Part shown: positions 33,052 to 45,604 of the stretch, piece after piece
How the letters are laid out: every line of letters begins with the position of its first letter
How positions within the stretch are numbered: position 1 is the first letter of the stretch
From: Desulfobaccales bacterium
GTDB taxonomy: Bacteria; Desulfobacterota; Desulfobaccia; Desulfobaccales; 0-14-0-80-60-11
DNA length: 64,000 nucleotides
Direction of reading: 5' to 3'
NCBI GenBank assembly: GCA_052147455.1
Contig: JBKQKO010000124.1
Location: forward strand, 4,618 to 68,617
Program-made: the position numbers and the translations under genes
Notes under the pieces: generated by a model
What the model was told of the DNA's origin: nothing
The model's database searches: none
Seen by the model: the letters and a program-made list of their open reading frames with translations, nothing else

Positions 33052-33059
33052 CGGCACCG
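33052..33059. repeat. target-site duplication, left copy (CGGCACCG)
   Basis: An identical 8-mer at 38042..38049 abuts the other TIR. Confidence 0.8.
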
Positions 33060-33076
33060 GGTAGTGTCCTAATTTG
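33060..33076. repeat. left terminal inverted repeat GGTAGTGTCCTAATTTG
   Basis: Exact reverse complement of 38025..38041. Confidence 0.9.
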
Positions 33077-33085
33077 AATTGATTG

Positions 33086-33496
33086 CTATGATTCGAGGAA
33101 AGATTTTAAGAGATTCTTCAAGGCCGTTTCATCCTTGGTTTGACATTCCCATATCACCAGTACGCGCCACCCTTGAACTTGTAAAGCTGCTTTTTGTTCT
33201 GCATCCCGAGCCGCGTTGCGATCCAGCTTCGTCCGCCAAAAGTCAATGTTCGATTTAGGTGCGTTGGCCCTCGGGCATCCTTTATGCTGGTGCCAGAAAC
33301 AGCCGTGTACAAAAATGGCTTTCCGTCGTGAGCGGAAAACAAGATCAGGACTTCCGGGCAAATCGCGGCCGTGCAGCCTATAGCGATAGCCCATACCGTG
33401 AACCATTCTCCGCACAAACATCTCAGGCGCGGTATTCTTTCCCTGGACAGCCCGCATATTGGCGCTTCGGCGCTCGCGGGAAAGTTTGTCAGGCAT
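33086..33496 (-). CDS. vsr: very-short-patch repair endonuclease
   Basis: MPDKLSRERRSANMRAVQGKNTAPE..VRR.LH..GYRYRLH..LPG.PDLVF...AIFVHGCFWH.H is a Vsr signature. Start at ATG 33496 overlaps the HNH gene stop (ATGCCTGA). The track ORF is N-extended. Confidence 0.9.
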   Translation of the reverse strand: MPDKLSRERRSANMRAVQGKNTAPEMFVRRMVHGMGYRYRLHGRDLPGSPDLVFRSRRKAIFVHGCFWHQHKGCPRANAPKSNIDFWRTKLDRNAARDAEQKAALQVQGWRVLVIWECQTKDETALKNLLKSFLES

Positions 33497-34064
33497 CGTC
33501 ACCGAACTTCTTACTGAGCCACGCAAAGACCGCCCGCTGTTCATCCTGTCCGGCACGCCTAACCTGGGAAAGGAGCCAAATGCCGGTCGGTTTTTCAGTA
33601 GTGATGTTCTTCGCTCCCTGATTACACGTCGAACACAAAGCCCGAAGGTTGGAGAGTTCGTCCAAACCCCCGAGGCTTTTGTCCTTGATGTGGCCGATAT
33701 GGAGCCTAACCTTGCGTCCGGTTTCCGGGTCAATCTCGCCAGGGGTGAGGCCGCACATCTGGCAGGTGAAGCCGTTGCGGTCCAGAACCTCGGCGCGAAG
33801 TTTTATTGAAATGCTCCGCGTGAATACCGTGGATGATTTTTCGGGCGGCTTCTGCTGTAGGAGGTATTGGCCGGGCTTCAAAGAGGATGAATCATTGTGC
33901 GTAAGGATCGGCCACCCTTCATCCTCGCGAAGCTCTCTCACGCGTCGCGCCCATTCGCTTACGCCGGTACCGGCGGCATCGCGAATCTCAATGGAGGTAA
34001 CGATCCTCCCGATGTTGGCAAGGAGAAACTGCCGGATTTTCTCTTTGGACCCGACCTTAGTCAT
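33489..34064 (-). CDS. HNH endonuclease with N-terminal winged-helix-like domain (putative restriction enzyme)
   Basis: CQMCG...HIGHIKDKSLGG...NLRALCSTCN HNH/zinc motif. Overlaps the methyltransferase gene by 8 nt. Confidence 0.8.
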   Translation of the reverse strand: MTKVGSKEKIRQFLLANIGRIVTSIEIRDAAGTGVSEWARRVRELREDEGWPILTHNDSSSLKPGQYLLQQKPPEKSSTVFTRSISIKLRAEVLDRNGFTCQMCGLTPGEIDPETGRKVRLHIGHIKDKSLGGLDELSNLRALCSTCNQGAKNITTEKPTGIWLLSQVRRAGQDEQRAVFAWLSKKFGDDA

Positions 34065-34779
34065 TTCCGGTTCGCCTCAACGGTTCCTGCTCCATGGTCA
34101 ATAAGTGCCGGATCAACTGTTCGCCGATATAGCAGGTATAGGCGGGCGGGATGGCCTCATTGATTTCGTTCTTCGTCATCCAGTCAATGTCCATCGCCTC
34201 GCGGGCGGCAGCAATCGTACAATTACCGCCTCCGGTGACTTGAACAAAATCCGTCCATTCATTCGTCTTCCCGAAGTGAGACTTTCTCTTGTCGAAGGTA
34301 TGGACCTTGGGATGCTTTTTATGCTCAGGCCGCGTAATCGGAAAGTTTACCTCAAACAGCCGGTGCCGTAATACCCGGAGGCCGGGGAACATCGTTCCGC
34401 ACAGAACCACGGGGTTGAGCAGCGGAGCGCCCTCGACATTCTCGATAATATAAGGGAGCCCCGTTCGGACAAACATTTCGCGAACAGGCTCAATCAGGCG
34501 CGGCCAATCATCTGCGTTGCGGTTACGCTTGGCGAGGTCCGAATATGACTGACAGGGCGGCGATGCGTGAATGGCATCAAACAATGCGATGAACTTCGGA
34601 TCGAGCGTAAGAGCGTCTGCCAGAATGAACTGAAACGGATAGTTCGGCTGTGGCTTAATATCAACGCCGACAACCTCGAATCCTGCTCTGTTGTAACCGA
34701 CGCCAGCACCGCCAGCACAACAGAAAAGATCGAGTAGCCGGGGCTTCCCTGGTGCCGCTTTAATGCAATCTTTCATCAT
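34057..34779 (-). CDS. compact DNA (cytosine-5) methyltransferase
   Basis: Motif I DLFCCAGGAGVG, motif IV ASPPCQSYS, motif VI YIIENV, and C-terminal EAIPPAY (motif X-like). 240 aa. Confidence 0.9.
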   Translation of the reverse strand: MMKDCIKAAPGKPRLLDLFCCAGGAGVGYNRAGFEVVGVDIKPQPNYPFQFILADALTLDPKFIALFDAIHASPPCQSYSDLAKRNRNADDWPRLIEPVREMFVRTGLPYIIENVEGAPLLNPVVLCGTMFPGLRVLRHRLFEVNFPITRPEHKKHPKVHTFDKRKSHFGKTNEWTDFVQVTGGGNCTIAAAREAMDIDWMTKNEINEAIPPAYTCYIGEQLIRHLLTMEQEPLRRTGND

Positions 34780-34836
34780 ACGCCTCTTTTAATATTGGAT
34801 GTGGCATTTTCGGCCTGATTTAAGTAAGGGAAAACT

Positions 34837-35493
34837 TCATTTGAAAAGTAGGGATATTATAATCCCTGCGAATATTGCAAGCAATCCTGGAAGAATCAGT
34901 TTATAAGTTATGGTAGTTAGTGTGTTCACGCTTTGTGCCAGAGATCGTAAATCTTTGCCAAGGTCCGATAAACTTGTAGTCTCAAGTTCTCTTAAATAAG
35001 CTTTATCTACTTCCGGAATACGTCCTTCTTTATGATCGGGAAAGGGTCCTATCACCTTCTCAACAGCTTTCTCAAGACGATGAAATTCAATGGTGCAAAT
35101 AGGGTCTAAATAATCTACTGTAACAGCTCTGCCGCCACAATTATAAAGCCCAAGTCTTAGATGTCCCTCAAAACCAGGATCAATTTGCATACCAGCAAGA
35201 AGAATTAATCCACGCCTTGCCCAAGAACTTTTCATTCCGATATGTGCAGCTATATTGAGAGGTAATCGAAATGATTCATAAGTCATTATCAATGCGAAAT
35301 CGCCAGCGTGCAATGTTACACTATTCGCCGTGGAGAGATTAATAAGAACATAATCGCGACTGACCAAAGCTTGGCCGCCTGCTCTTGCATCATAAGAACA
35401 AGGTTGCTGTCGATTTGCGTCGTATGGTTCAATGCCAAACTCATGAGATTTAAGGGCTTCTATTATTTCCCCATCTGTAATTAACATGGCCAA
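34837..35493 (-). CDS. dCTP deaminase/dUTPase-fold protein with C-terminal transmembrane anchor
   Basis: Dcd-like blocks SYDARAG, MKSSWARRG and IDPGFEGHLRLGLYN. The C-terminal extension ends in LILPGLLAIFAGIIISLLFK. Confidence 0.8.
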   Translation of the reverse strand: MAMLITDGEIIEALKSHEFGIEPYDANRQQPCSYDARAGGQALVSRDYVLINLSTANSVTLHAGDFALIMTYESFRLPLNIAAHIGMKSSWARRGLILLAGMQIDPGFEGHLRLGLYNCGGRAVTVDYLDPICTIEFHRLEKAVEKVIGPFPDHKEGRIPEVDKAYLRELETTSLSDLGKDLRSLAQSVNTLTTITYKLILPGLLAIFAGIIISLLFK

Positions 35494-35792
35494 TTCTCCT
35501 TTTTTGAGATACCCTTATAGTCATGAACAATGGAAGCCCTGACAGCCTTCTCAGGGGAACCTACGGGAGGAATGTGCAGCACGGCATAATACCGTCTTTT
35601 GGTGCTTCCCTCTATCGGGGAGGACCAGGCATAGCATTTATCGGTCTGAGGATTCCCCTTGATGAGAAAAACAGATACCACTCCGCCCCAGACAGTTTCC
35701 TCCCCAAACATCTCCACCACGGCCACATCTTCCAGGAAGGACGCCTGGCAATGGTGCAGCCGCTCCACGGCCCGTTTCAAATCTTCTTCCAT
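35481..35792 (-). CDS. hypothetical protein (103 aa)
   Basis: Start at ATG 35792 (MEEDLKRAVERLHH...). Its 3' end overlaps the Dcd-like gene by 13 nt. No recognisable motif. Confidence 0.45.
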   Translation of the reverse strand: MEEDLKRAVERLHHCQASFLEDVAVVEMFGEETVWGGVVSVFLIKGNPQTDKCYAWSSPIEGSTKRRYYAVLHIPPVGSPEKAVRASIVHDYKGISKKENWPC

Positions 35793-35827
35793 TGGTAAAC
35801 CTACCTGCGGCGATTTTATCGGAAAGG

Positions 35828-36091
35828 TTAAACGGGAACCAGTTTCGTCCAATCCCATTTTCCTATCTGAATCAAGGTATCCATTGCCGCCGCTATCTCG
35901 GGGTCAAACTTGAAAACATCTTCCCGCGGAAATCCAACAGGTTGAATTTTAGTGTCCCCGGCCAATAAATTCTCAAAGATGGTATCGGTGGTAATATAGA
36001 CCCCCCGCCCAGCCTCTTCCCATATACGGCGAACCAGAGGCTCACCCCCAAAGGCCCTGACAATCACCATATCGCCCTGCATTTCTGCCAC
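35828..36091 (-). CDS. hypothetical protein (87 aa)
   Basis: ORF in the same orientation, 35 nt upstream of the 103-aa ORF. No recognisable motif. Confidence 0.4.
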   Translation of the reverse strand: MAEMQGDMVIVRAFGGEPLVRRIWEEAGRGVYITTDTIFENLLAGDTKIQPVGFPREDVFKFDPEIAAAMDTLIQIGKWDWTKLVPV

Positions 36092-36230
36092 CTCCGTTAT
36101 GAAGATGGTTCCATCTTAAACGGACTTTTATGCAGTTTCAGAAAAAATCGAATATTTTAGATTCCGGTATTGATTTTTATTGACAAGGTATTGGATTAGG
36201 TATAAGGTATTGTCAAATGGAGGGTATGGC

Positions 36231-36944
36231 ATGAACGAAAAAGAGTCCGCCAAGAAAATTATCCCGCCCTATGTGCCTTATAAGACGTTCATTAACTTCC
36301 TGGATAACCTGAGGCAGCAGGGGGTGCCCCAAAAGATTGACCGGAGCATATCGCCTTTTAAGTCAATGTCCGGTGCCCTTCAAGGCCAGGTGCGGTTGGC
36401 CCTGGAATACCTAAATTTGATAACCGATAGCGGAGAAACAACGGAAGGGCTAAAAAAATTGGCCAAAGCTGAGGACGGGATAGAAAGGGAACAAGCTCTA
36501 AAAGATGTCCTTCTGCCTGCTTACTCCTTCATATTCGAAAACGGGATAGACATCGAGAGTGCAACCCATCGCCAATTGGAAGAACTTTTTACTCAAGAAG
36601 GAGCGACAGGAGACACGCTGCGTAAATGCACCGCTTTTTTCCTGTCCGCGGCCAGGGGCGCCGGAATAAAACTGTCTCCCCATTTCAAAAAGGTTCGTAG
36701 CCGGCGTGCGGGTTCAGCAAAGCCAAAACGCCAATCGCAGGCCAAAGCTCCAACCGATAAACAGCCAGCGAAAGAACCGGCGTCTCCCCCAAAAGCCGCA
36801 GAGCCGACAGATGATTCCTCGATGAAGTTCATAATTGATCTAATGGGCAAATTCAATCCAGAGTGGTCCAAAGATGCTCAACAAAACTGGCTTGAAGCAA
36901 TCAATAAGCTACTGGATCGTTTTCAAAAGAAGTCGGGGGATTAA
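36231..36944 (+). CDS. hypothetical protein with globular N-domain and Lys/Pro/Ala-rich basic linker
   Basis: ATG 36231 preceded by GGAGGG. Residues 1-150 look helical/globular, followed by KKVRSRRAGSAKPKRQSQAKAPTDKQPAKEPASPPKAAEP and a short C-terminal helix. Confidence 0.55.
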   Translation: MNEKESAKKIIPPYVPYKTFINFLDNLRQQGVPQKIDRSISPFKSMSGALQGQVRLALEYLNLITDSGETTEGLKKLAKAEDGIEREQALKDVLLPAYSFIFENGIDIESATHRQLEELFTQEGATGDTLRKCTAFFLSAARGAGIKLSPHFKKVRSRRAGSAKPKRQSQAKAPTDKQPAKEPASPPKAAEPTDDSSMKFIIDLMGKFNPEWSKDAQQNWLEAINKLLDRFQKKSGD

Positions 36945-37026
36945 TCCAATGCAGGGGGTGATGAACATGAGAAGAGGCTTGGTTCCTGTCAGCGGTGAAT
37001 CGCCCTGGCAGGGACCGCAAAAGGAA

Positions 37027-37073
37027 GGCTCCATAGCCTCTGAGTCGTTGGCGCGATGCAAGGCTATGGAGCC
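37027..37073 (+). other. perfect 12-bp stem hairpin
   Basis: GGCTCCATAGCC, 23 nt of loop, then GGCTATGGAGCC. Lies in a non-coding-looking region. Confidence 0.6.
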
Positions 37074-37089
37074 GTGGCGATTCTTCTGT

Positions 37090-37157
37090 GGGGCGCGATT
37101 GGTTCCCTGGAGGTCCCTACAGCCCACCTGGGCGGGGTTCGATTCCCCGGCGCTCCA
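37090..37157 (+). ncRNA. tRNA-like / tmRNA-3'-end-like element (68 nt, no normal cloverleaf)
   Basis: 5' GGGGCGC pairs with 3' GCGCTCC, including a G3:U70 wobble, followed by A73. A canonical T-arm CGGGG-TTCGATT-CCCCG is present. Only 36 nt lie between acceptor and T-arm, with no D or anticodon arm that I could fold. Confidence 0.35.
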
Positions 37158-37210
37158 CTTTCATTCAAGATAGCAAGTATTTACCCGGTAGTCAATAAGG
37201 AATCTGCAAG

Positions 37211-38032
37211 ATGAACATTCTGCGGCGGGAAAAGCAGGAAGCGGCGATAGCGGCCCTGGTGGAAGGTGCTTCAATCCGGTCAGTTGAACGCATGACCGGG
37301 ATTCACCGCGATACCATCATGCGCCTCGGCTACCGAGTAGGGCAAGGCTGCGAAAACCTTATGGATTCTTATATGCACCACTTGAAATGCCAGACTGTCC
37401 AGGTTGACGAAATATGGTGTTTTGTGGGTAAAAAGGAGCGCCACCTTAAAGACACCGATAACCTTGAAGAACTTGGCGATCAATGGGTATTTGTGGCCCT
37501 GGACTCCGACAGCAAATTGATACCATCTTATTTGGTGGGGAAACGCTCTACCGCTAATGCCTATGCCTTTATGGAGGACTTATCTGAGCGGCTGGATAAC
37601 AGGGTGCAGTTAAGCAGCGATTCTATGAGGGCTTATATAGGAGCCGTGGATTCGGCATTTGGGGCTATCGTGGATTACGGCCAGGTGGTAAAAGCGTATG
37701 AAACGGAGCCGATTGGCGCAGGCAGGTATTCTCCGCCCAAAGTGATCAGGGCTGACCGGATCATTATTTCCGGCAGCCCTAACCAATCCAAGATATCAAC
37801 CTCACATATCGAGCGGCAAAACTTGACCATGCGGATGCAGATGCGGCGCTTCACCCGGCTGACCAATGCCTTTAGCAAGAAGCTGGATAATCTCAAGGCA
37901 GCCGTGGCCTTGCATTTTGCTCATTATAATTTCGTGCGGATTCATAGCTCACTTCGGGTTACTCCGGCAATGGCCGCGGGTGTCACCGATCACCTTTGGT
38001 CAATTTCTGAACTTATGCGAGAGGCAAATTAG
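37211..38032 (+). CDS. IS1-family transposase (single ORF)
   Basis: N-terminal HTH (SIRSVERMTGIHRDTIMRL), VDEIWCFVGKK, and TSHIERQNLTMRMQMRRFTRLTNAFSKK..NFVRIH..L..TPAMAAG, like the IS1 InsB C-region. The stop codon lies inside the right TIR. Confidence 0.9.
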   Translation: MNILRREKQEAAIAALVEGASIRSVERMTGIHRDTIMRLGYRVGQGCENLMDSYMHHLKCQTVQVDEIWCFVGKKERHLKDTDNLEELGDQWVFVALDSDSKLIPSYLVGKRSTANAYAFMEDLSERLDNRVQLSSDSMRAYIGAVDSAFGAIVDYGQVVKAYETEPIGAGRYSPPKVIRADRIIISGSPNQSKISTSHIERQNLTMRMQMRRFTRLTNAFSKKLDNLKAAVALHFAHYNFVRIHSSLRVTPAMAAGVTDHLWSISELMREAN

Positions 38033-38041
38033 GACACTACC
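38025..38041. repeat. right terminal inverted repeat CAAATTAGGACACTACC
   Basis: Exact reverse complement of 33060..33076. Confidence 0.9.
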
Positions 38042-38049
38042 CGGCACCG
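38042..38049. repeat. target-site duplication, right copy (CGGCACCG)
   Basis: Identical to 33052..33059. Confidence 0.8.
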
Positions 38050-38056
38050 GGATGCC

Positions 38057-38084
38057 TTGACAAGGGGAGTGCATTTGATAAAAT
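38057..38084 (+). promoter_or_regulatory. sigma70-type promoter of tRNA-Arg
   Basis: TTGACA (38057..38062), a 16-nt spacer, then TAAAAT (38079..38084). The tRNA starts about 10 nt downstream. Confidence 0.6.
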
Positions 38085-38093
38085 TTTTGGCGC

Positions 38094-38170
38094 GGGCGAT
38101 TAGCTCAGGTGGATAGAGCGTTGGTCTCCGGAACCAAAGGCCGGGCGTTCGAGTCGCCCATCGCCCGCCA
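38094..38170 (+). tRNA. tRNA-Arg (anticodon CCG)
   Basis: Hand-folded cloverleaf: GGGCGAT/ATCGCCC acceptor, GCTC-AGGTGGATA-GAGC D-arm, TTGGT-CTCCGGA-ACCAA anticodon arm (CCG), GGGCG-TTCGAGT-CGCCC T-arm, encoded CCA. Confidence 0.93.
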
Positions 38171-38194
38171 GTTTCCAAACTTTCCTCAGGCTTT

Positions 38195-38228
38195 GGTGAA
38201 TATCTAGATGAATATCTTCACCAGTTTT
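38195..38228 (+). terminator. possible tRNA terminator hairpin
   Basis: GGTGAATAT...ATCTTCACC imperfect stem followed by AGTTTT. Confidence 0.35.
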
Positions 38229-38576
38229 CCCTCCACAAATCAACTATTCTATAATCGAAGTAATCAGGTGATCTGTGGTTCACCGCATTGCTCCAAGTCT
38301 ACGATGAATTTTTCGTTAGGAGCCACGGCGATCAACGAGGATTAAGAGGATGAGAATTGTGACCCTGCTACAGAATGGCCATTAAGAGTGCAAGGCGAAA
38401 TTATTGGGGCGGCGGCGGGCTTGAGAGGTGGGGGAAAATTAAAGATATATTCCGGATATATGGAGCTTTTTGGCTCAGTGATAAGTCTCGGATCATGGCA
38501 GTACTTGACACTTTTGCCCAATTGCATCCTAGGGCAAATCTCTTCTCAAGTTAATGCCTCTTGGGCGTTTAAGGGA

Positions 38577-39284
38577 TCAAGATATGCCAAGGTATGCTTG
38601 GCGAACCCCGTCATGGGACAGCAGCTCGTCACCTGTCCCTTCAAGAACAATTCGACCCGTCTGGAGCACGTAGGCGCGATCCGCGACTTGCAATGCTTCG
38701 TAGACATTCTGTTCAATGAGTAGCACCGTTAGACCTTCTGACTGCAAGCGCACAATCACCTCAAAAACCTCGTCAACCAACTTCGGCATTAGGCCAAGTG
38801 AGGGCTCGTCGAGTATAAGCAGTTTGGGCCGGGACATCAATCCTCTGGCTATGGCAAGCATCTGCTGCTCTCCGCCCGAGAGGGTCTCTGACTTCTGAAA
38901 TTGACGCTCCTGCAAGCGGGGAAACATTGTGAACACCTGATCAAGCGTAGCTTCTATTTCTCCCTGTTCGTGGCGCGTGTAGGCTCCCAGCAACAGATTG
39001 TCCAGAACGTTCATTTTGCCGAAAATCAGGCGTCCCTCTGGCACATGCGACATACCCCTGGCAACAATTTCATACGGATGTAGGGCGGTGATATCCTCTC
39101 CAAGAAATTCTATGGTCCCCTCAATTGGGTGCAGCAGACCAGAGATTGCCTTGAGCAAGGTCGATTTCCCAGCTCCATTCGAACCGATTACAGAGGTGAT
39201 CTCCCCCTCATTCACCTTGATGGTGATCCCCCGCAGTGCTGGGATTTCATCATACGTCACTTCAATGTCAGCGACCCTTAGCAT
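38577..39284 (-). CDS. HAAT-family ABC transporter ATP-binding protein, LivF-like (set 2)
   Basis: GSNGAGKST, LSGGEQQ and LILDEPS motifs. 235 aa. Confidence 0.9.
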   Translation of the reverse strand: MLRVADIEVTYDEIPALRGITIKVNEGEITSVIGSNGAGKSTLLKAISGLLHPIEGTIEFLGEDITALHPYEIVARGMSHVPEGRLIFGKMNVLDNLLLGAYTRHEQGEIEATLDQVFTMFPRLQERQFQKSETLSGGEQQMLAIARGLMSRPKLLILDEPSLGLMPKLVDEVFEVIVRLQSEGLTVLLIEQNVYEALQVADRAYVLQTGRIVLEGTGDELLSHDGVRQAYLGIS

Positions 39285-40005
39285 GATACTTCACCCCCAG
39301 ATAGGCCTCAATGACCGCTGGATCGTTAAGAACCGTTTCTGGCACGCCTTGGGCGATGAGCCGGCCTCCGTCAAGCACATAGATCCATTCTGCAATGGGA
39401 ATAAGCGCCTCCAATACATGTTCCACCATAAATAGAGTGATCCTCTGTTCTTTTTGCAAATTGCGCAGCAAATCAAGTGCCTCGTGAATCTCCGAGGAAT
39501 TCAGACCAGCCATAGTTTCATCCAGCATCAGCAGCTTTGGTTGCAACCCCAGCGTCATAGCCACCTCAAGACGTTTCTTATCTGCTATCGTCAGGCTCCT
39601 GGCAGGTAGGAGTGCCTTCGATTCCAAGCGGGTCAAGCTAAGGATTTCCTCCGCCCGCCGGCGGGCTTCGTTTACCCTGGATGTCTTGCCAAAGACCCCC
39701 ACCATCACGTTTTCCACCACACTCATATCCATCAGCACCTTGACCACCTGAAAGGTTCTGACGAGTCCGGTATGAGGTACCCGGTATGAAGGAAGTTTGG
39801 TGATTTCCTGCCCTGCAAACTTTATCGTTCCGGCAGTAGGTTTGTAGAAACCGCTGATACAGTTAAAGATGGTAGTCTTGCCGGCTCCGTTCGGGCCGAT
39901 AAGACCAACCACCTGTCCCTCGCCGATTTCCAAGTTAACATCCTGGCAAGCGATCAGGCCTCCGAAACGCTTGGTTAATCCCTTCACTTCGAGTAAGCTG
40001 GTCAC
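39268..40005 (-). CDS. HAAT-family ABC transporter ATP-binding protein, LivG-like (set 2)
   Basis: GPNGAGKTT and LMLDE motifs. GTG start at 40005 overlaps the upstream stop (GTGA). The track ORF is N-extended. Confidence 0.85.
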   Translation of the reverse strand: MTSLLEVKGLTKRFGGLIACQDVNLEIGEGQVVGLIGPNGAGKTTIFNCISGFYKPTAGTIKFAGQEITKLPSYRVPHTGLVRTFQVVKVLMDMSVVENVMVGVFGKTSRVNEARRRAEEILSLTRLESKALLPARSLTIADKKRLEVAMTLGLQPKLLMLDETMAGLNSSEIHEALDLLRNLQKEQRITLFMVEHVLEALIPIAEWIYVLDGGRLIAQGVPETVLNDPAVIEAYLGVKYHAKGR

Positions 40006-41063
40006 GGTTTTCCCTGCTGGGCCTTGATCGACAGACCTGTGGGCCCGGGGCGGCGCCGAAAGTTCCGCAGCCTCTGCAACCATCCCATAACGCCGTTAGG
40101 TTGATAGATAACTATAATGATAATCAATAAACCGTAAATCATCAGGTCCACGCCTCGTCCTGTACCTCCCAGCCAGGCCCGGGCATACTCTGAAATGGGG
40201 ATGAGGATTAAAGCGCCAACCAGAGGTCCAAATAAATAAACGGCTCCTCCCAGGGTAGCTACTAGCACGATAATGGTGGACATGTTGATATTCAGAATGC
40301 TGGCTGGATCAATATAAAGAACATATTGCGCGTAAAAAGTGCCCGCCAAAGCTGTAAAGAAAGCACTGACACCTAATGCCAAGGATTTGTAATGGGCTAG
40401 GTTAACACCTAGTCGTTTCGCTGAATCCTCGTCGTTGGCGATGGCACGAAAATAGAAACCAGGCTTCGTTTGAATCATCCAGTAGGTGACCAGTACGCTC
40501 AAGGCATACAGGCCCAGGACGATGTAGTAATATGGCAGCTTGCTGGAGAATTGGAAATAGCCCCATCCTGACTTGAGTGGCAAACTCAACCCATCTGCGC
40601 CGCCTACTAATCTCCAATTGGAAAAGAGGATTTGCACAACCTGCTGAAGCGCAATGGTCGCAATGGCAAAGTAATGACCCCTCAATTTTGAGAATGGATA
40701 ACCGATCAAAACGGCAAACACGGCGCTGATGAGTCCACCCGCGACCAGCCCGAGCCACGGTGATAGTCCGGTATCAAGAAAAAGTAAAGTCGACGTATAT
40801 GCTCCAAAGCCGAAGAAAACGATATGCCCGAACGAGATCATGCCGGCATATCCCCCTGCCAGGCTCCAAGCTTGCCCGAGAAGGGCGTACATGAAAATTA
40901 GAATTAATACGTGCTGGAAATGGTGATTGTCATACAGCAAAGGCAGGATGCAGAAGAGGAGGGCCGCCGCCGGCAACCAAAGGTTGTCAATCTTAAATTT
41001 TGCTTTATTCCGCCCGTGTCCGCCGGGTGTCGGCTGCCGTTGATTCACTATCTTGGTCACCAT
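40002..41063 (-). CDS. HAAT-family ABC transporter permease, LivM-like (set 2)
   Basis: 353-aa polytopic protein with GYAGMISFGHIVFFGFGAY. Confidence 0.85.
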   Translation of the reverse strand: MVTKIVNQRQPTPGGHGRNKAKFKIDNLWLPAAALLFCILPLLYDNHHFQHVLILIFMYALLGQAWSLAGGYAGMISFGHIVFFGFGAYTSTLLFLDTGLSPWLGLVAGGLISAVFAVLIGYPFSKLRGHYFAIATIALQQVVQILFSNWRLVGGADGLSLPLKSGWGYFQFSSKLPYYYIVLGLYALSVLVTYWMIQTKPGFYFRAIANDEDSAKRLGVNLAHYKSLALGVSAFFTALAGTFYAQYVLYIDPASILNINMSTIIVLVATLGGAVYLFGPLVGALILIPISEYARAWLGGTGRGVDLMIYGLLIIIIVIYQPNGVMGWLQRLRNFRRRPGPTGLSIKAQQGKP

Positions 41064-41917
41064 CCAAACAGACCTTTCGGCCGAATAGAAACCACACCCA
41101 GGTAGATTAGGAAGATGACGGCATCCTTGTATTGAGGTCCCAGATACAGGCCTCCAAGATGCTCTGCCAGGCCGATCATGAGACCTCCTAAGAACGAACC
41201 CGGAACACTGCCAAATCCCCCCAGGGCAACGATGGCGAAGGCCAGCAGGCCAAACTTGTCACCCACACTCGGAAAAACGTAGTAGAAATTACACAACAGA
41301 GATCCAGCCACGCCCAAGAGAGCCAGGGCCACACCGAAGGTAATGCCAAACACCCGCTCCGTATTGATCCCCATCAGCGCGGCCGCTTCCTTACTAATTG
41401 AGGTTGCCTGCACGGCGCGGCCCAGACGGGTTTTTTTTAACCACCAGTAAGTCCCCCCGAAAACGGCAACGCTGGTTAGAGCGGCAATGACTTTTGCCTC
41501 GCTGACCACAAATAATGGAAAACGCCAGGTACCTGAAATCAGGGTACCGCGCAGTTGCTGATAGTCGGGACTCCAAACAAAGACCGCCAAATTAACCAGG
41601 AAGATAGCGATTCCGAACGTTAGGAGCAGTTGTGCCAATATAGGCCCCGTCAGGACCTTCCTTACCATAGTGCCATACGTGCCCCAGCCAACGAAAAACA
41701 TAATCAGTGCGACCAAGGGCAACGATATGAGGGGGTCAATTCCCCAGAGTTTGTCCGCCCAAAAGGTAAGGAACATAGCCAGCATTAAAAAGGCCCCGTG
41801 CGCGAAGTTGATGATGTTCATTACCCCCCAAATCAATGTCATGCCCACGGCGATCAAAGCGTATATTGATCCCATCAGCAATCCGTCGATCACCATTTGC
41901 AGAAGCTGGTTTTCCAT
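41057..41917 (-). CDS. HAAT-family ABC transporter permease, LivH-like (set 2)
   Basis: MENQLLQMVIDGLLMGSIYALIAVGMTLIWGVMNIINFAHG. Confidence 0.88.
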   Translation of the reverse strand: MENQLLQMVIDGLLMGSIYALIAVGMTLIWGVMNIINFAHGAFLMLAMFLTFWADKLWGIDPLISLPLVALIMFFVGWGTYGTMVRKVLTGPILAQLLLTFGIAIFLVNLAVFVWSPDYQQLRGTLISGTWRFPLFVVSEAKVIAALTSVAVFGGTYWWLKKTRLGRAVQATSISKEAAALMGINTERVFGITFGVALALLGVAGSLLCNFYYVFPSVGDKFGLLAFAIVALGGFGSVPGSFLGGLMIGLAEHLGGLYLGPQYKDAVIFLIYLGVVSIRPKGLFGW

Positions 41918-41984
41918 GCTTCTACTCCGCGCACCCGCTCAGAGTCGAAAGAGGGCCTGCTGGTGGCAGGCCCCTCGACCTCTG

Positions 41985-43229
41985 CTACTTGCTCCAGCCG
42001 GGAAACGGCCAGACAATCTTCATCGTGGCAACGTTTGGAGGCCAGACCGTTTGGAATTCCCCATTGACCCTCTGTTGCAAAACTAAAGAGGCGTATTTAT
42101 TCTGTTGGTTCTGGTCAAATTGAATTCCTTTCCATGGCATAATGCCTGCACTCATGTTGGTCGTCACCAGCGCCTTTTGAATGGCATCCGGGTTCGTGGA
42201 ACCGGCACGGTTGATCGCATCCGCCAAAACAAACGGCGCGTTGAAACTCCGTACGGCATTTTCGGTTATATCGTGACCGAACTTCTTGCGGTAAAGATCG
42301 TTGACCTGTTGAATCGCCGGAATGGTTTTTGCCATAGCAAGATTGAACTCAGACAGCACCACGAAATAATCTGCATCGGGGCCTACCGTTTTCAAATACG
42401 ACCTATCCGTATGCCCCGTCCATGACATAAGGGCCTGTGGAGTGAAGTTATGGAGTTTGAAAGCTTCCGTGTAAAGTATTTCATCCGAAACATAGGAATT
42501 TTCCATCACGACGTCCGGGTGTGCATCCATGATGCGGGCCACTTCGCTGGAGACGTCCGTGGTGCTGTGAGAATAGGGCACATCTGCTACAATTTCGTAC
42601 CCGTATTTCTTGGCGCCAATCTTCTCTTGCTCGGCAACGCTGGAGCCCCACTCTGAGTTCTCATATACCAGGGCGATCCGATTGATGGAATGTCCCTGCT
42701 TTCTCATGCCCTCCAAGAATTCGAATTGGTCCTGGGCACCTATCGAGACGTTGGGGTTAGCGCGGAAAAAATAATGAAAGCCCCGTTCGGTCAACGCGGT
42801 AGAAGTCGAGTCCGAACACACCATGGGTATATGCATGCGCTCGGTTACCTGGCTCACCGTTTTGGTTACGGAACTTTGATAAGCCCCGACCATGGCCACA
42901 ACTCCATTGTTGGAGATAAGGTACTCTGCTGCGCTAATCCCGGTTTGGGGAGACCCCTGGGAGTCTGAAAATACGGCCTCTAACTTTGCCCCACCCAGGG
43001 AAGGAATGCCAGCAGTTTTTGCAAAGGGAATATCTATGTCATACTCATTATTAATGATATCGATTGCCAGTTCCACACCCGATTTACACTCCTGTCCCGT
43101 CGAGGCTACATCCCCGGTCAAGGGGTAAACGGCGCCGATCTTAATGACCCCAGCGGCAAGGCTTATTCCAGGGAGAATAACCACCACGGCAAGAACCAGT
43201 ATCCCTAGGCCTACGTATTTGCGAACCAT
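41985..43229 (-). CDS. HAAT-family substrate-binding protein (set 2)
   Basis: Signal peptide, then IKIGAVYPLTGDVASTGQE, typical of the type-1 PBP (LivK family). Confidence 0.85.
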   Translation of the reverse strand: MVRKYVGLGILVLAVVVILPGISLAAGVIKIGAVYPLTGDVASTGQECKSGVELAIDIINNEYDIDIPFAKTAGIPSLGGAKLEAVFSDSQGSPQTGISAAEYLISNNGVVAMVGAYQSSVTKTVSQVTERMHIPMVCSDSTSTALTERGFHYFFRANPNVSIGAQDQFEFLEGMRKQGHSINRIALVYENSEWGSSVAEQEKIGAKKYGYEIVADVPYSHSTTDVSSEVARIMDAHPDVVMENSYVSDEILYTEAFKLHNFTPQALMSWTGHTDRSYLKTVGPDADYFVVLSEFNLAMAKTIPAIQQVNDLYRKKFGHDITENAVRSFNAPFVLADAINRAGSTNPDAIQKALVTTNMSAGIMPWKGIQFDQNQQNKYASLVLQQRVNGEFQTVWPPNVATMKIVWPFPGWSK

Positions 43230-43869
43230 TTTTCGTCCCTCCCTTCATTCTCATCCAAACGAATTAATTTGTTTGGAAACCCCTCTCCGCCAAAACATCA
43301 CTCCCTTGCAGAATACCACGGGAGGTAGATAGTTAGAGGGGGGCATTAAGCATCCCCGGCGAAAATGTACTTTTTTGCCTGCTCCGCCGCACTGCGGGTA
43401 TTTAACGTTTACCTTACCCAGACAAGTTTCACATGTAGCTATCTCCTTTATCTGTAAATTTTATAGTTGCTATCAACCGATCTCATGCCGCAAAGAGGTA
43501 ATGCGTCTTATAGCCAAATTATCTCGTAGGAGGCATGATAGCACAAATTTCCCTGAAAGATTAATTTTTCCAAAAATCTGAGCATACCCAACCCTCAGAA
43601 TCCAAATACTTCCCAGTTGTGGAGCTTAAGGAGCCCAACCCAGCACCGCCCGGTAATGGTGCGCTAGAGGAAGGGCGAAGGCGCGGTCTCCTTTGCTCAT
43701 GGGACTGAATATAGCTTGCCAGGATTAGCAGTTATCCCTTTGGAGGGCGAAATTCCGGATATGATTTGGATATGGGAAGTTTCATCTTCGAAATGATTAC
43801 TAGGCATAGAGGTAATTTCCAACCTAACCCGGATCAAGAGGCCCCCCATCAGCTCATCGGCAACCACCA

Positions 43870-44283
43870 TTAACTTTCAGCCGGTATAATTTCTTCTTTG
43901 AGACGCACGGCATGAACACATCCAATAAACTGCCCATCTTTTCTCATAGGTGTAAGTGTTACGAGAATGACCTTTCCATAAGGCTTGGCCTCATAATGGA
44001 ATGGCTCAGTCCTTCCCCCGGAGAACTCCAGGAGCATCGAATCAAATTTTTGGTTAGTAATTGCTTTCTTATGATGTAGATGGATATCCGAGCCGATATA
44101 TTCAGGTTTGCGGTCCAATATCTCGGCCGAATGACGATTATAATAGAGGAGAGTTCCTTTCGGGTTGAAAATTGTCACACCCACCTCTAAGCAATCCATT
44201 GCAAGAGAGACCAGTTCCCTCAATTGTGTTATACTTTCAGGTTCTCCCAGATGATTGCTCCCATTATTTTTTTCCTCGTTCAT
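43870..44283 (-). CDS. stand-alone PAS-domain protein
   Basis: 137 aa with a PAS-like core (GVTIFNPKGTLLYYNRHSAEILDRKPEYIG...DGQFIGCVHAV). Confidence 0.6.
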   Translation of the reverse strand: MNEEKNNGSNHLGEPESITQLRELVSLAMDCLEVGVTIFNPKGTLLYYNRHSAEILDRKPEYIGSDIHLHHKKAITNQKFDSMLLEFSGGRTEPFHYEAKPYGKVILVTLTPMRKDGQFIGCVHAVRLKEEIIPAES

Positions 44284-44428
44284 AGCTCCTGCCTGGGAAA
44301 GACATCCTATCTCAAGGCATGTTTTGTAGTTGCCTTCTCTTTTAATCCGATTATTTCATCAAGGGTGTATCTCCCGCTTTTCCCAGGAAGATTAAGGCGA
44401 GTGCTTTGACCCAGCCGCACGTGTTCTT

Positions 44429-44701
44429 TCACCAACGCCTAGGCATCTGCCGAGATGAGAAACGTGTACCTACTCGCTTATTGGCTGCCTCGATACGGCT
44501 GGCAAGGTTTACTGCAGCGCCGATGACCGTCATCTTCTTGTTCCCTGGAGCGCCCAAGGTCCCAGCCACTACTTGTCCGTAGTGCAAGCCTAAACGTATC
44601 TCAAAGCTCTCTTGGTATAGCTCCTTCAAATAAGGACCAAGTTTCTGGACAGCATCGATCATCTCAAGTCCTGTCTGGATGGCCCGTGCGGCAGCCTTGG
44701 C
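44429..44701 (-). pseudogene. 5'-truncated, 3'-frameshifted class III adenylate/guanylate cyclase fragment
   Basis: Only the C-terminal half of the catalytic domain is present (RLGLHYGQVVAGTLGAPGNKKMTVIGAAVNLASRIEAANK). Homology continues 13 codons upstream of the M and then hits a stop. The metal-binding N-half is absent and the C-terminus reads out of frame. Confidence 0.7.
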
Positions 44702-44774
44702 CTAACGTAGTCAAAAAGCGGTTTTTGGGATCCCTTTGCCAGGGGCAAACCCCACAAAGCTTCTCTCGCTGCAA

Positions 44775-45227
44775 CTATTGCCGCCGGACCTTTTCCATCG
44801 CCGCGGTAATGGCCTCCTTGTTGAGGACAAACTCCATCATCCCTACCTGTTGCTCGTAGGTTTTCGAATCCACCAACTCCTTGATGCGGTCTTCCAGGAT
44901 GTGATATACAGGGAGTCCCAACGGGACTCCGGCCAAAGGACCTGCGAAGGTGGGGTCGCCTTTGGTGACGGTTTCAGCATAGATTTCAGCGCTTTCCGCA
45001 TCGGGAGAGCCCAAAACCACCACCAGGTTTTCCGTGCCGTTGTCTTCAACGGCTTTCTTGATCGTCCCCTGATCTTCCAGATCCATGGCCCCCGCCGCAG
45101 TTCAGACAAAGCACTGGGTCAACGCCAGGACCGGTTGAGCTCCTGCGGTCCGGATGCACTCGGCAATGGCCGGGGCTGGCACCCCATCCCGTTCCCCGAT
45201 GCAAATGACTTTCTTTCCTTGTAACAT
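44775..45227 (-). CDS. grdA: glycine/sarcosine/betaine reductase complex selenoprotein A
   Basis: Translating through the TGA at 45102..45104 gives [53 protein letters not shown]...GDPTFAGPLAGVPLGLPVYH, including the canonical CxxU motif. GAGGAGG RBS before ATG 45227. The track shows only the part 3' of the UGA. Confidence 0.93.
45102..45104 (-). other. in-frame UGA (selenocysteine) codon of grdA
   Basis: Codon 42, within CFV-U-TAAG. Confidence 0.9.
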
Positions 45228-45251
45228 GTGACAAAACCTCCTCGGTTATAC

Positions 45252-45599
45252 TTAGGTAGATGACAATTCCAGGGCCGCTTCCAGATAGCCCGCCACAAAT
45301 TTGTCCAACTCTTCCTGATTGACTTCTTTTCCCGACAGCCGGCCTACTTCCTGGCCGTCCCGATACAGCAGGAAGGTGGGCAAGCCCATCACCTTAAGAT
45401 CGATACACAGCCGCCGGTTTTTGCTGGCGTCCACCTTGGCCACCTTCAGCCGTGTCCCATATTTACCCGCCAGTTCCTCTACATATGGCATCAGGGCTAG
45501 GCAGGGGGCGCAGGCCGGTCCCCAAAAATCTACCAGCACCATTCCCGGCGAGGATTCGATTTCCGCAACGAAGGTCTCTTTGGTGACCTCCAGAGCCAT
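45252..45599 (-). CDS. thioredoxin
   Basis: 115 aa. Thioredoxin fold with active-site region DFWGPACAPC and ...GLPTFLLY. Confidence 0.85.
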   Translation of the reverse strand: MALEVTKETFVAEIESSPGMVLVDFWGPACAPCLALMPYVEELAGKYGTRLKVAKVDASKNRRLCIDLKVMGLPTFLLYRDGQEVGRLSGKEVNQEELDKFVAGYLEAALELSST

Positions 45600-45604
45600 A
45601 CCTT

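What the first reader, a model, noticed from the sequence alone, without database searches (positions are those of the whole stretch)
36945..37186. tRNA-like minihelix with alanine identity elements, plus a 12-bp perfect hairpin, between the cargo and the IS core
- The ~240-bp gap between the basic-linker protein gene and the transposase has no credible ORF but contains strong RNA-like structure.
- One element is GGCTCCATAGCC-N23-GGCTATGGAGCC (37027-37073).
- The other is a 68-nt element (37090-37157). Its 5' GGGGCGC pairs with 3' GCGCUCC, including a G3:U70 wobble and A73, which is the tRNA-Ala/tmRNA identity set.
- That element also has a canonical T-arm, CGGGG-UUCGAUU-CCCCG.
- Only 36 nt replace the D-arm, anticodon arm and variable region.
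- It ends about 30 nt before the degenerate inner IS end.
- Three possibilities: a relic of the tRNA or tmRNA attachment site of an island the IS captured; a decayed tRNA-Ala; or a functional tRNA-like RNA (aminoacylatable minihelix or processing signal).
- I cannot tell which from the sequence alone.
Basis: partly seen in the sequence, partly recalled or inferred. Interest (0 to 1): 0.6.

Follow-up and report, generated by a model that had tools for sequence, protein, structure and literature searches.

The report
Conserved tRNA-like RNA inside IS1 transposons
The hairpin and the tRNA-like piece are real and are two parts of a conserved, roughly 190-base structured RNA that a family of IS1-type transposons carries just upstream of its transposase gene; it matches no described RNA family and its job is not yet known.

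Summary
Window 33060-38041 is a 4,982-bp IS1-family transposon with 17-bp inverted repeats and an 8-bp target duplication (CGGCACCG).

The 266-bp gap before its transposase gene holds one structured RNA, made of:
- a Shine-Dalgarno site and AUG followed by AGA AGA
- hairpin 1
- a pseudoknot joining the hairpin-1 loop to the linker
- a 68-nt tRNA-Ala-like domain

About 45 non-redundant homologous loci keep this layout. Both hairpins and the pseudoknot show compensatory changes. The tRNA-like domain is 81-99% identical where four-fold sites of the adjacent transposase gene are only 25-68% identical. It is therefore a functional RNA, not an attachment-site relic or a decayed tRNA.

ARAGORN and Rfam do not recognise it as tRNA or tmRNA. 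The only resemblance is a sub-threshold match to mascRNA.

A degenerate pattern scan found 73 further loci in many phyla with short tRNA-Ala-like elements, some next to IS1595-like transposases or DUF5343 genes.

The mechanism is inferred. Most likely the domain is a tRNA mimic processed by tRNA-maturation enzymes, which releases and stabilises a leader RNA. The 5' end of that leader copies the design of CreT rare-tRNA-trapping RNA toxins.

The parts
33052..33059 (.). Left copy of the 8-bp target-site duplication, CGGCACCG
   Evidence: The same 8-mer directly flanks both inverted repeats. Five homologous transposons show 8-bp duplications of other sequences.
33060..33076 (+). Left terminal inverted repeat, GGTAGTGTCCTAATTTG (GGnnnTG type)
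   Evidence: (I2). The same 17-bp repeat bounds the elements in L004, L006, L015, L071 and L080.
36231..36944 (+). DUF5343-family gene directly upstream of the RNA (237 aa from the ATG; the ORF opens at TTG 36180)
   Evidence: Relatives pass the Pfam DUF5343 threshold. The AlphaFold model has pLDDT 81 and no significant PDB fold match.
36953..36960 (+). Shine-Dalgarno-like AGGGGGUG, 6 nt before the AUG
   Evidence: A GGAGG/GGGGG motif lies 6-9 nt upstream of the start codon in the homologues.
36967..36975 (+). AUG followed by two AGA codons (start of the mini-ORF)
   Evidence: AGA AGA is kept in 26 of 27 aligned homologues with no synonymous change. The start codon varies between AUG and GUG. 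AGA is the rarest Arg codon in the window (5.3%).
36981..37016 (+). Hairpin 1: 12-bp stem (36981-36992 with 37005-37016) and a 12-nt loop
   Evidence: Eleven of 12 pairs show compensatory changes; 91% of cells are paired.
36997..37004 (+). 5' strand of the pseudoknot, GAAUCGCC, in the loop of hairpin 1
   Evidence: helix 2: 96% paired and two pairs changed on both sides. Examples are L051 GGAUUGCC/GGCAAUCC and a U:A pair in L026.
37027..37073 (+).
   Evidence: z = -6.4; 9 of 12 pairs show compensatory changes.
37076..37083 (+). 3' strand of the pseudoknot, GGCGAUUC, in the linker 6 nt before the tRNA-like domain
   Evidence: helix 2. The linker (C)CGUGGCGAUUC is nearly invariant.
37090..37157 (+). 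tRNA-Ala-like domain. Acceptor stem 37090-37096 with 37150-37156 (G3:U70), discriminator A 37157. T-arm 37133-37149 with loop UUCGAUU. The 36-nt interior (37097-37132) has a conserved GG and a conserved UACA-containing loop.
   Evidence: Acceptor and T stems are invariant in the IS1 group. The T stem covaries in the wider class. The fold of the interior is uncertain.
37158..37162 (+). Conserved 3' trailer CUUUC in place of CCA
   Evidence: C-U-U-U in 22-26 of 30 IS1-type copies. Some subgroups encode CCA instead (L051, L101, L146).
37211..38032 (+). IS1-family DDE transposase gene (273 aa)
   Evidence: (PF03400, 34.5 bits against a cut-off of 24.1).
38025..38041 (-). Right terminal inverted repeat
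38042..38049 (.). Right copy of the target-site duplication, CGGCACCG

Best explanation
**What is shown.** The hairpin and the tRNA-like element are the middle and 3' domains of one conserved RNA of about 190 nt (36953-37157). The RNA is carried inside a family of IS1-type transposons, between a winged-helix-type passenger gene and the transposase gene. The RNA is under purifying selection, and the hairpin and pseudoknot structure is supported by covariation.

**What is inferred about how it works.**
- The 3' domain is a tRNA-Ala-derived mimic. It keeps the acceptor stem, the T-arm and the elbow GG, but not a decoding-competent anticodon arm.
- The host's tRNA-maturation enzymes probably treat it as a pre-tRNA. 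RNase P would cut before G37090, and 3' processing would follow A37157.
- These cuts would split the passenger-RNA-transposase co-transcript. They would release a small RNA with protected ends and detach the transposase mRNA from upstream transcription.
- The released 5' part has a strong ribosome-binding site, AUG and two rare AGA codons directly followed by a stable hairpin. This is the design of CreT-type RNAs, which trap rare tRNA-Arg(UCU) on ribosomes.
- The RNA is therefore proposed to act on translation, as an addiction or regulatory module of the transposon. The neighbouring winged-helix protein is its likely controller.
For: **Architecture and covariation.**
- Alignment A3 (27 loci): 91% of cells are paired against 43-53% in slid controls. 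24 pairs changed on both sides. 0 of 500 shuffles reach the observed values.
- The whole RNA folds with z = -3.29.

**Selection.**
- The tRNA-like domain is 81-99% identical where four-fold sites of the transposase gene are 25-68% identical.

**Position.**
- The RNA lies inside transposons that have intact inverted repeats and different 8-bp target duplications.
- The transposase start codon lies 105-135 nt after the first base of the tRNA-like domain. This holds even where the transposases are only 45-66% identical.

**tRNA-substrate features.**
- U at position -1 in 26 of 30 IS1-type copies and 66 of 94 copies overall.
- A conserved GG in the D-like segment and a canonical T-loop.
- CCA is encoded in several subgroups.
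- Full-length resemblance to mascRNA. That mascRNA is itself made by RNase P and RNase Z rests on my own knowledge of the literature.

**CreT-like features.**
- AGA AGA shows no synonymous substitution in 26 of 27 homologues.
- AGA is the rarest Arg codon here and is absent from the transposase and DUF5343 genes.
- The length and frame of the rest of the ORF are free. This fits tRNA trapping better than classical attenuation.

**Independence from the transposase.**
- Hairpin plus tRNA-like domain also occur after DUF5343 or related genes with no transposase nearby: L078-type (L078, L090), L073, L079 and L082.
- The RNA also occurs before other genes, in L026 and L011.
Against: - No expression, processing or charging data exist.
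- The IS1-type copies encode CUUU rather than CCA, although the host tRNA-Arg next door encodes CCA.
- The pseudoknot holds the 5' leader only 6 nt from the presumed RNase P site, which could hinder cleavage as well as regulate it.
- The interior 36 nt is strongly conserved in sequence but is not convincingly helical: 74.5% paired and no more stable than shuffles. It probably has a specific partner that this model does not name.
- No CRISPR array is found in the window. cas genes and a creA-like antitoxin were not looked for, and no antitoxin is identified.
- Several subgroups lack the AGA AGA module (L045, L146, L078-type), so it cannot explain the tRNA-like domain by itself.
- Close transposase relatives at 43-63% identity, and relatives on alphaproteobacterial plasmids, lack the RNA. 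It is therefore not needed for IS1-type transposition.
Confidence: 0.4

Rival explanations
1. Cis-acting leader that tunes transposase expression. Translation of the mini-ORF stalls at the rare AGA codons according to the supply of tRNA-Arg(UCU). The stall decides whether hairpin 1 and the pseudoknot form. That in turn sets the transcription, stability or translation of the transposase mRNA downstream. The tRNA-like domain is a structural or processing part of this switch.
For: - The RNA sits at a fixed distance upstream of the transposase gene in about 45 loci.
- In some loci the same leader precedes other genes: L026 before the 'RSPNFP' gene and L011 before a GIY-YIG-like ORF.
- The AUG lies 14 nt before hairpin 1, so an initiating or stalled ribosome would reach the base of the hairpin.
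- In L006 the stop codon of the upstream gene overlaps the mini-ORF start (ATGA), which suggests coupled translation.
Against: - The mini-ORF length varies from 10 to 80 codons and its frame varies. Classical attenuators fix where the ribosome stops.
- Hairpin plus tRNA-like domain persist with no downstream gene in L078-type loci, as in L090.
- They also persist without the AGA module (L045, L146).
Confidence: 0.2
2. An aminoacylated tRNA mimic that acts on the ribosome or on another Ala-tRNA-using enzyme. After processing and CCA addition, AlaRS charges the domain through G3:U70 and A73. The charged RNA then acts like a small tmRNA-type or decoy molecule. Alternatively it donates alanine to some other acceptor.
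For: - The full alanine identity set (G1:C72, G2:C71, G3:U70, G4:C69, A73) is invariant. This includes loci retrieved through the protein, not through the DNA pattern: L004, L006, L008, L123, L144 and L146.
- CCA is encoded in 34 of 64 non-IS1-type class members.
- A bona fide phage tRNA-Ala(UGC) has the same acceptor stem and T-arm (L012).
- Pairing an mRNA-like 5' part with an Ala-tRNA-like 3' part recalls tmRNA.
Against: - There is no tmRNA topology, and neither ARAGORN nor Rfam gives a tmRNA match.
- The IS1-type copies lack encoded CCA.
- The central loop is 10 nt and its arm is irregular, so normal decoding is unlikely.
- No smpB-like or other partner gene is conserved nearby.
Confidence: 0.15
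3. A binding site or decoy for a tRNA-recognising protein, used by the mobile element. Candidates are the neighbouring DUF5343, 'RSPNFP' or coiled-coil winged-helix protein, the transposase itself, or a host tRNA-targeting nuclease. The purpose would be regulation or protection.
For: - The most constant neighbours are winged-helix-type proteins of three families, with or without a transposase.
- The interior 36 nt is conserved in sequence rather than in pairing.
- The cargo is often defence-related: restriction-modification genes and a dCTP-deaminase-like gene.
Against: - The DUF5343 model has no significant structural match to an RNA-binding fold.
- There are no hits to PADLOC defence models.
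- There is no direct evidence of binding.
Confidence: 0.15
4. A non-functional relic: a decayed tRNA-Ala, or a remnant of a tRNA or tmRNA attachment site captured by the IS.
For: - The acceptor stem and T-arm are identical to those of a real tRNA-Ala (L012), so descent from a tRNA-Ala gene is plausible.
- ARAGORN and the Rfam tRNA model reject it.
Against: - Strong purifying selection.
- Conserved in about 45 loci with independent insertions.
- Both acceptor strands are present.
- No integrase-like protein family recurs beside the element across loci.
- No second att copy in the window.
- The flanking hairpins covary.
Confidence: 0.02

Closest known systems
mascRNA / MEN-beta tRNA-like RNAs (Rfam RF01684)
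   Same: - Both are small tRNA-like units with a 7-bp acceptor stem, a canonical T-arm, a reduced D region and no decoding anticodon loop, embedded in a longer transcript.
- RF01684 is the only Rfam model that aligns end to end (30.9 bits).
- From my own knowledge: RNase P and RNase Z cut mascRNA out, and the cut creates the 3' end of the upstream RNA.
   Different: - mascRNA is eukaryotic (vertebrate).
- The score is below the gathering threshold of 42.5 bits.
- The element here carries the alanine identity set, sits in a bacterial DNA transposon, and is preceded by a pseudoknot domain and a mini-ORF start.
- Processing has not been shown here.
CreT RNA toxins of CreTA modules (PMC8501985)
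   Same: [quoted passage not shown] These are the four elements reported as critical for CreT.
   Different: - No CRISPR array is found in the window. cas genes and creA were not looked for.
- The ORF continues for 10-80 codons rather than 4-6.
- The RNA is about 190 nt, with a pseudoknot and a tRNA-like 3' domain.
- It is located in an IS1-family transposon.
- Toxicity has not been tested.
tmRNA (SsrA)
   Same: Both combine an alanine-identity tRNA-like part (G3:U70, A73, canonical T-arm, reduced D region) with an mRNA-like part and a pseudoknot in one RNA.
   Different: - In tmRNA the tRNA-like domain is formed by the 5' and 3' ends, with the ORF and pseudoknots in between. Here the tRNA-like domain is contiguous and lies 3' of the ORF start.
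- Here the ORF start has its own Shine-Dalgarno site and AUG.
- ARAGORN gives no call, and Rfam matches only the 17-nt T-arm.
Bacterial tRNA-Ala genes
   Same: - The acceptor stem (GGGGCGC/GCGCUCC-A) and the T-arm are identical to those of a phage tRNA-Ala(UGC) (L012).
- Some members of the wider class keep a UGC loop (L014, L052).
   Different: - The element is 68 nt with no D-arm or variable loop. Its central loop is 10 nt and carries UAC.
- It is rejected by ARAGORN and gets no Rfam tRNA match.
Non-coding RNAs encoded by insertion sequences (IS110/IS1111 bridge or seek RNAs, e.g. PMC11187229; TnpB omega RNAs)
   Same: All are conserved structured RNAs encoded next to the transposase or recombinase gene inside the element.
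   Different: - Those RNAs guide DEDD or RuvC-type enzymes by base-pairing to the target and the element ends.
- Here the enzyme is a DDE IS1 transposase. The target duplications show no common sequence.
- No complementarity to the ends or the target was found.
- Many related transposases lack the RNA.

Membership tests
tRNA (RF00005 / ARAGORN) | Cloverleaf with D-arm, 5-bp anticodon stem and 7-nt loop; score at or above the Rfam gathering threshold of 29 bits, or an ARAGORN call | tested here: not met
   ARAGORN finds only tRNA-Arg at 38094-38170. No RF00005 match on 37090-37157 even at E <= 10. One distant class member, L059, just passes at 29.9 bits.
tRNA-Ala identity set | G3:U70 wobble pair with A73 and G1:C72, G2:C71, G4:C69 in the acceptor stem | tested here: met
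   Read directly from the sequence. Invariant in 27 aligned homologues. Also present in loci retrieved through the protein.
tRNA-Ala identity set | Actual aminoacylation by AlaRS | not testable with these tools
   Needs an in vitro charging assay or acid-gel northern.
tmRNA | tRNA-like domain formed by the 5' and 3' ends, enclosing a tag ORF with a resume codon and pseudoknots; detected by ARAGORN or the Rfam tmRNA models | tested here: not met
   No ARAGORN tmRNA call. The Rfam tmRNA models match only the 17-nt T-arm at 12-13 bits. The topology differs.
mascRNA-menRNA (RF01684) | Score at or above the gathering threshold of 42.5 bits | tested here: not met
   30.9 bits, full-length alignment.
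CreT-type tRNA-sequestering RNA | [quoted passage not shown] | tested here: met
   Window 36953-37016. Conserved in 26 of 27 homologues. AGA is the rarest Arg codon here. Criteria taken from PMC8501985.
CreT-type tRNA-sequestering RNA | Paired with a CRISPR-repeat-like creA gene and repressed by a type I Cascade | tested here: inconclusive
   No CRISPR-like array is found in the window. cas genes and a single ectopic creA-type repeat were not looked for.
CreT-type tRNA-sequestering RNA | Growth arrest that is relieved by overproducing the cognate rare tRNA | not testable with these tools
   Needs expression experiments.
IS1 family transposon (context) | DDE_Tnp_IS1 transposase, terminal inverted repeats starting GGnnnTG, and a target duplication of 8-9 bp | tested here: met
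   PF03400 at 34.5 bits against a cut-off of 24.1. Inverted repeat GGTAGTGTCCTAATTTG and 8-bp duplications in six independent insertions.
tRNA/tmRNA attachment-site relic | A partial (3') gene copy at an island border, a matching direct repeat at the other border, and an integrase nearby | tested here: not met
   Both acceptor strands are present. No second copy in the window. No integrase-like protein family recurs beside the element across loci. The element lies inside a DDE transposon.

The most novel reading that the evidence does not exclude
The RNA is an independently evolved hybrid of an mRNA and a tRNA, used by a DNA transposon to act on the host ribosome. In this reading a ribosome-loaded mini-ORF with tandem rare AGA codons traps tRNA-Arg(UCU). 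The attached Ala-type tRNA mimic is matured, and possibly charged, like a tRNA. Together they would couple the host's translation state to maintenance or movement of the transposon. This RNA would also be one branch of a large, undescribed class of 66-68-nt tRNA-Ala-like RNAs found across many phyla. Some members keep a co-evolving copy of their central arm nearby.
Probability: 0.2. Interest if true: 0.9.

Novelty: new variant of a known kind. Interest (0 to 1): 0.72.

Why it matters
- **A new RNA component for DDE insertion sequences.** IS1-type elements are thought to consist of protein genes and DNA ends. A conserved, covariation-supported RNA next to the transposase gene adds an RNA component to a major IS family. 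This follows RNA components found in the IS110/IS1111 and IS200/IS605 families, but here there is no sign of a guide function.
- **Gaps in current search tools.** tRNA mimics with the alanine identity set are widespread in uncultured bacteria: 73 loci in species-representative genomes from many phyla. Rfam and tRNA finders miss them.
- **Directly testable questions.** If the CreT-like 5' module is active, rare-tRNA trapping would extend beyond CRISPR-associated modules to transposons. The following can all be tested with a 200-nt construct: how passenger-carrying transposons insulate or control transposase expression, what DUF5343 proteins do, and whether bacteria use RNase P-dependent 3'-end formation as MALAT1/mascRNA does.

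Tried and rejected
- **tRNA or tmRNA gene.** ARAGORN and Rfam (gathering and permissive thresholds) give no tRNA or tmRNA call.
- **Protein-coding reading of the gap.** The 68-codon ORF from 36967 runs through the tRNA-like domain. In homologues its frame relative to the element is 0, 1 or 2, and its length is 10-80 codons. Rejected as a protein gene.
- **'Inner IS end' near 37186.** The resemblance to the inverted repeat is not conserved and the real ends are elsewhere.
- **Intrinsic terminator role for hairpin 2.** The simple scan flags only a weak, overlapping terminator-like site (37063-37078). The hairpin has no U tract, and the sequence after it is the pseudoknot strand.
- **Guide-RNA idea.** There is no copy or complement of the central loop elsewhere in the window. 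The six target duplications share no motif.
- **Pairing of the AUG region with the linker before G1.** Often possible (5-7 nt), but no better than with shuffled partners.
- **Thermodynamic support.** Not significant for the tRNA-like domain alone (z = -0.55) or for its interior (mean z = +0.55 in the IS1 type). The argument rests on conservation.
- **Cultured plasmids and phages.** blastn finds nothing. The IS1 relatives on alphaproteobacterial plasmids lack the RNA.
- **Literature.** Searches for tRNA-like elements in IS1 or other transposons, and for ISMhu11, found no prior description.
Full report
**1. What is at the coordinates.**
- 37027-37073 is a perfect 12-bp hairpin: -31.3 kcal/mol, z = -6.4, none of 200 shuffles as stable.
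- 37090-37157 has the following parts:
  - a 7-bp acceptor stem, GGGGCGC/GCGCUCC, with G3:U70
  - discriminator A
  - the T-arm CGGGG-UUCGAUU-CCCCG
  - 36 nt in between
- On energy alone the 68-mer is unremarkable (z = -0.55).
- ARAGORN finds only a tRNA-Arg(CCG) at 38094-38170.
- Rfam finds nothing at gathering thresholds.
- A permissive Rfam search gives one full-length but sub-threshold match to the tRNA-like mascRNA-menRNA model (30.9 against 42.5 bits, E = 7e-4). The tmRNA models match only the T-arm.

**2. Context: an intact IS1-family transposon.**
- The downstream gene, 37211-38032, is an IS1-family DDE transposase.
- 17-bp inverted repeats lie at 33060-33076 and 38025-38041 (GGTAGTGTCCTAATTTG, the GGnnnTG type). 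They are flanked by an 8-bp direct repeat, CGGCACCG.
- The 4,982-bp element carries Vsr, HNH, C5-methyltransferase and dCTP-deaminase-like genes, two small genes and a DUF5343-family gene.
- Homologous elements of 3.1-5.2 kb in L004, L006, L015, L071 and L080 have the same inverted repeats. Each has a different 8-bp duplication. The family has therefore transposed repeatedly, and the RNA region lies inside the mobile unit.

**3. The gap is one conserved structured RNA.**
- Flanks of transposase homologues at 80-85% amino-acid identity align over the whole gap.
- More copies came from three sources:
  - a degenerate DNA-pattern scan of species-representative genomes (73 loci)
  - a narrower scan of metagenomes (35 loci)
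  - protein-based retrieval
- An alignment of 27 distinct IS1-type copies (A3) supports this model:

| Part | Window coordinates |
|---|---|
| Shine-Dalgarno site | 36953-36960 |
| AUG AGA AGA | 36967-36975 |
| Hairpin 1 | 36981-36992 with 37005-37016 |
| Pseudoknot | hairpin-1 loop GAAUCGCC (36997-37004) with linker GGCGAUUC (37076-37083) |
| Hairpin 2 | 37027-37073 |
| tRNA-like domain | 37090-37157 |

- Pair counts, whole structure:
  - 91.2% of cells paired, against 43-53% when the partners are slid
  - 24 pairs changed on both sides
  - 0 of 500 shuffles reach the observed values
- Pair counts, by helix:
  - Hairpin 1: 11 of 12 pairs covary.
  - Hairpin 2: 9 of 12 pairs covary.
  - Pseudoknot: 96% paired, with two compensated pairs (for example GGAUUGCC/GGCAAUCC in L051).
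  - The acceptor and T stems never vary within this group.
- RNAalifold independently recovers both hairpins and the tRNA-like stems.
- The whole RNA folds with z = -3.29.

**4. It is under selection and is not a relic.**
- Against the window, the tRNA-like domain of 20 homologues is 81-99% identical. Four-fold degenerate sites of the adjacent transposase gene are 25-68% identical.
- The element has both acceptor strands and no second copy in the window. No integrase-like protein family recurs beside it across loci.
- The acceptor stem and T-arm are identical to those of a bona fide phage tRNA-Ala(UGC) (L012). Descent from a tRNA-Ala gene is therefore plausible.

**5. Not a protein gene, but a conserved translation start.**
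- The ORF opened by AUG 36967 runs through the tRNA-like domain in the window.
- In homologues it ends after 10-80 codons and meets the tRNA-like domain in any of the three frames.
- Several features of the start itself are conserved:
  - GGAGG or GGGGG lies 6-9 nt upstream.
  - The start codon is AUG, or GUG in two copies.
  - AGA AGA follows in frame in 26 of 27 copies without a single synonymous change. This holds even where an extra codon follows the AUG (L026, L051).
- AGA is the rarest arginine codon in the window (5.3% of Arg codons). It is absent from the transposase and DUF5343 genes.
[quoted passage not shown] That paper also reports that the CreT stop codon is dispensable (PMC8501985).
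- No CRISPR array is found in the window. cas genes were not looked for.

**6. Features of the tRNA-like domain.**
- Position -1 is U in 26 of 30 IS1-type copies and in 66 of 94 copies overall. From my own knowledge, this is the known preference of bacterial RNase P.
- The D-like segment always contains GG, and the T-loop is canonical.
- Across 87 distinct elements, the two inner T-stem positions that the pattern left free are Watson-Crick in 82 of 87, with three or more pair types.
- IS1-type copies carry A-CUUU at the 3' end. Other subgroups encode CCA (L051, L101, L146 and 34 of 64 non-IS1 members).
- The host tRNA-Arg next door encodes CCA.
- The 36-nt interior is strongly conserved in sequence, including a UACA-containing 10-nt loop. 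As a helix it is only 74.5% paired and no more stable than shuffles. Its fold is left open.

**7. Distribution and partners.**
- Where the flank is long enough, the transposase start codon lies 105-135 nt after the first base of the tRNA-like domain (G1). This holds in nearly all IS1-type loci, including ones whose transposases are only 45-66% identical (L065, L051, L045, L101, L086).
- The RNA is not universal. Nineteen viral-contig relatives at 43-63% identity lack it, as do two alphaproteobacterial plasmid copies.
- The upstream neighbour is one of three types:
  - a DUF5343 protein on the same strand
  - a roughly 270-aa 'RSPNFP' protein on the opposite strand
  - a coiled-coil plus winged-helix-like protein
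- In L004 the divergent arrangement leaves a near-perfect sigma-70 promoter (TTGACA-17-TAAAAT) about 30 nt before the AUG.
- Hairpin plus tRNA-like-CCA also occur with no transposase: after DUF5343 genes in L078-type loci (L078, L090), and beside 'RSPNFP' genes on the opposite strand in L073, L079 and L082.
- The RNA also occurs before other genes, in L026 and in viral contig L011.
- In Bacteroidota a similar hairpin plus tRNA-like element precedes an IS1595-like transposase (L067).
- The DUF5343 model (pLDDT 81) has no significant solved-structure match.

**8. Interpretation.**
- Shown:
  - a conserved, selected, structured RNA
  - a tRNA-Ala-like 3' domain
  - location inside active IS1-family transposons
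- Inferred:
  - The tRNA-like domain is handled by tRNA-maturation enzymes.
  - These cut the co-transcript, give the leader RNA defined and protected ends, and separate it from the transposase mRNA.
  - The 5' module engages ribosomes in the way CreT does.
- The rival explanations are scored separately in the report: a cis-acting attenuator, a charged tRNA mimic acting on the ribosome, and a protein decoy or binding site.
- Confidence that this is a functional RNA rather than a relic is about 0.9 or higher. Confidence in the specific mechanism is about 0.4.

**9. Novelty.**
- There is no match at Rfam gathering thresholds in the window. Seventeen of 18 wider-class loci have no match on the element.
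- There are no hits in cultured plasmids or phages.
- Literature searches found no description.
- It is a new variant of the known kind 'tRNA-like RNA', in a context (a DDE transposon) where none was known.

Noticed in passing
L019, L023, L027, L031, L036, L043, L053, L066 (Peregrinibacteria/Peribacteria); L046, L055, L061, L081, L092 (Planctomycetota); L016, L044, L064 (Eremiobacterota): - Many non-IS1 members of the short tRNA-Ala-like class have a 14-20-nt exact copy of the 5' strand plus loop of their central arm nearby.
- The copy lies about 85 nt upstream, 30-45 nt downstream, or inverted downstream.
- It changes together with the arm between species.
- It could be an alternative-pairing switch, a guide/target pair or the product of gene conversion. 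This is unexplained.
   Followed up: partly
L013-L085 (genome-contig scan): - A degenerate acceptor plus T-arm pattern with a short spacer found 73 loci, where roughly 1-2 were expected by chance.
- They come from many phyla, including Peregrinibacteria, Planctomycetota, Chloroflexota, Eremiobacterota, Bacteroidota, Actinomycetota, Cyanobacteria and Verrucomicrobiota.
- Most elements are 66-68 nt, with a 3-bp mini D stem, a 7-9-bp central stem and no variable loop.
- The central loops carry many different 'anticodons' (UGA, CGA, UGU, UCC, UCU, UUC, UAC, UGC) on an alanine-type acceptor stem.
   Followed up: partly
L067 2526-2593 (Chitinophagaceae chromosome CP075895.1); also L029, L056, L022, L084: - IS1595-like transposase genes lie next to short tRNA-Ala-like elements.
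- In L067 the order is coiled-coil protein, hairpin, tRNA-like element, transposase. This mirrors the IS1 arrangement in another phylum.
   Followed up: partly
window 38057-38170: - The transposon's right end (38041, plus the duplication to 38049) sits 7 nt before the -35 box of a strong promoter-like site (TTGACA-16-TAAAAT, 38057-38084).
- That site precedes tRNA-Arg(CCG) at 38094-38170, which encodes its CCA.
- Other insertions of the family are not next to tRNA genes.
   Followed up: yes
window 37167-37195, minus strand: - A promoter-like site, TTGACT-17-TATCTT with a TG extension, reads antisense into the tRNA-like domain.
- Its two hexamers fall in the best-conserved blocks between the RNA and the transposase start (AAGATAGCAAG and AGTCAAT).
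- This could mean an antisense transcript or be coincidence.
   Followed up: no
window 47297-47334, minus strand: The Rfam SECIS_4 model matches above its gathering threshold (40.8 against 38 bits). This suggests a selenoprotein gene in this genome.
   Followed up: no
window 33086-36091: - The transposon cargo looks like a defence or restriction-modification set: Vsr endonuclease, HNH nuclease, C5 cytosine methyltransferase and a dCTP-deaminase-like protein.
- Two small proteins (about 100 aa and about 85 aa) are conserved with the RNA in 9 and 5 other loci. They match no Pfam or PADLOC family.
   Followed up: partly
L011 4736-4803 (minus strand; IMG/VR viral contig) and L010 about 4464-4534: - In L011 a related hairpin plus tRNA-like RNA precedes a GIY-YIG-like ORF on a viral contig.
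- In L010 another short tRNA-Ala-like element follows an HNH homing-endonuclease-like ORF.
   Followed up: no
L059 5084-5150: This class member just passes the Rfam tRNA threshold (29.9 against 29 bits). It has a UUC (Glu) loop on an alanine-type acceptor stem, and an IS1-like transposase gene converges on it.
   Followed up: no
window 34001-46000: G+C is 0.48-0.53 here against about 0.6 on either side. The transposon may sit in, or next to, a larger region of foreign composition.
   Followed up: no
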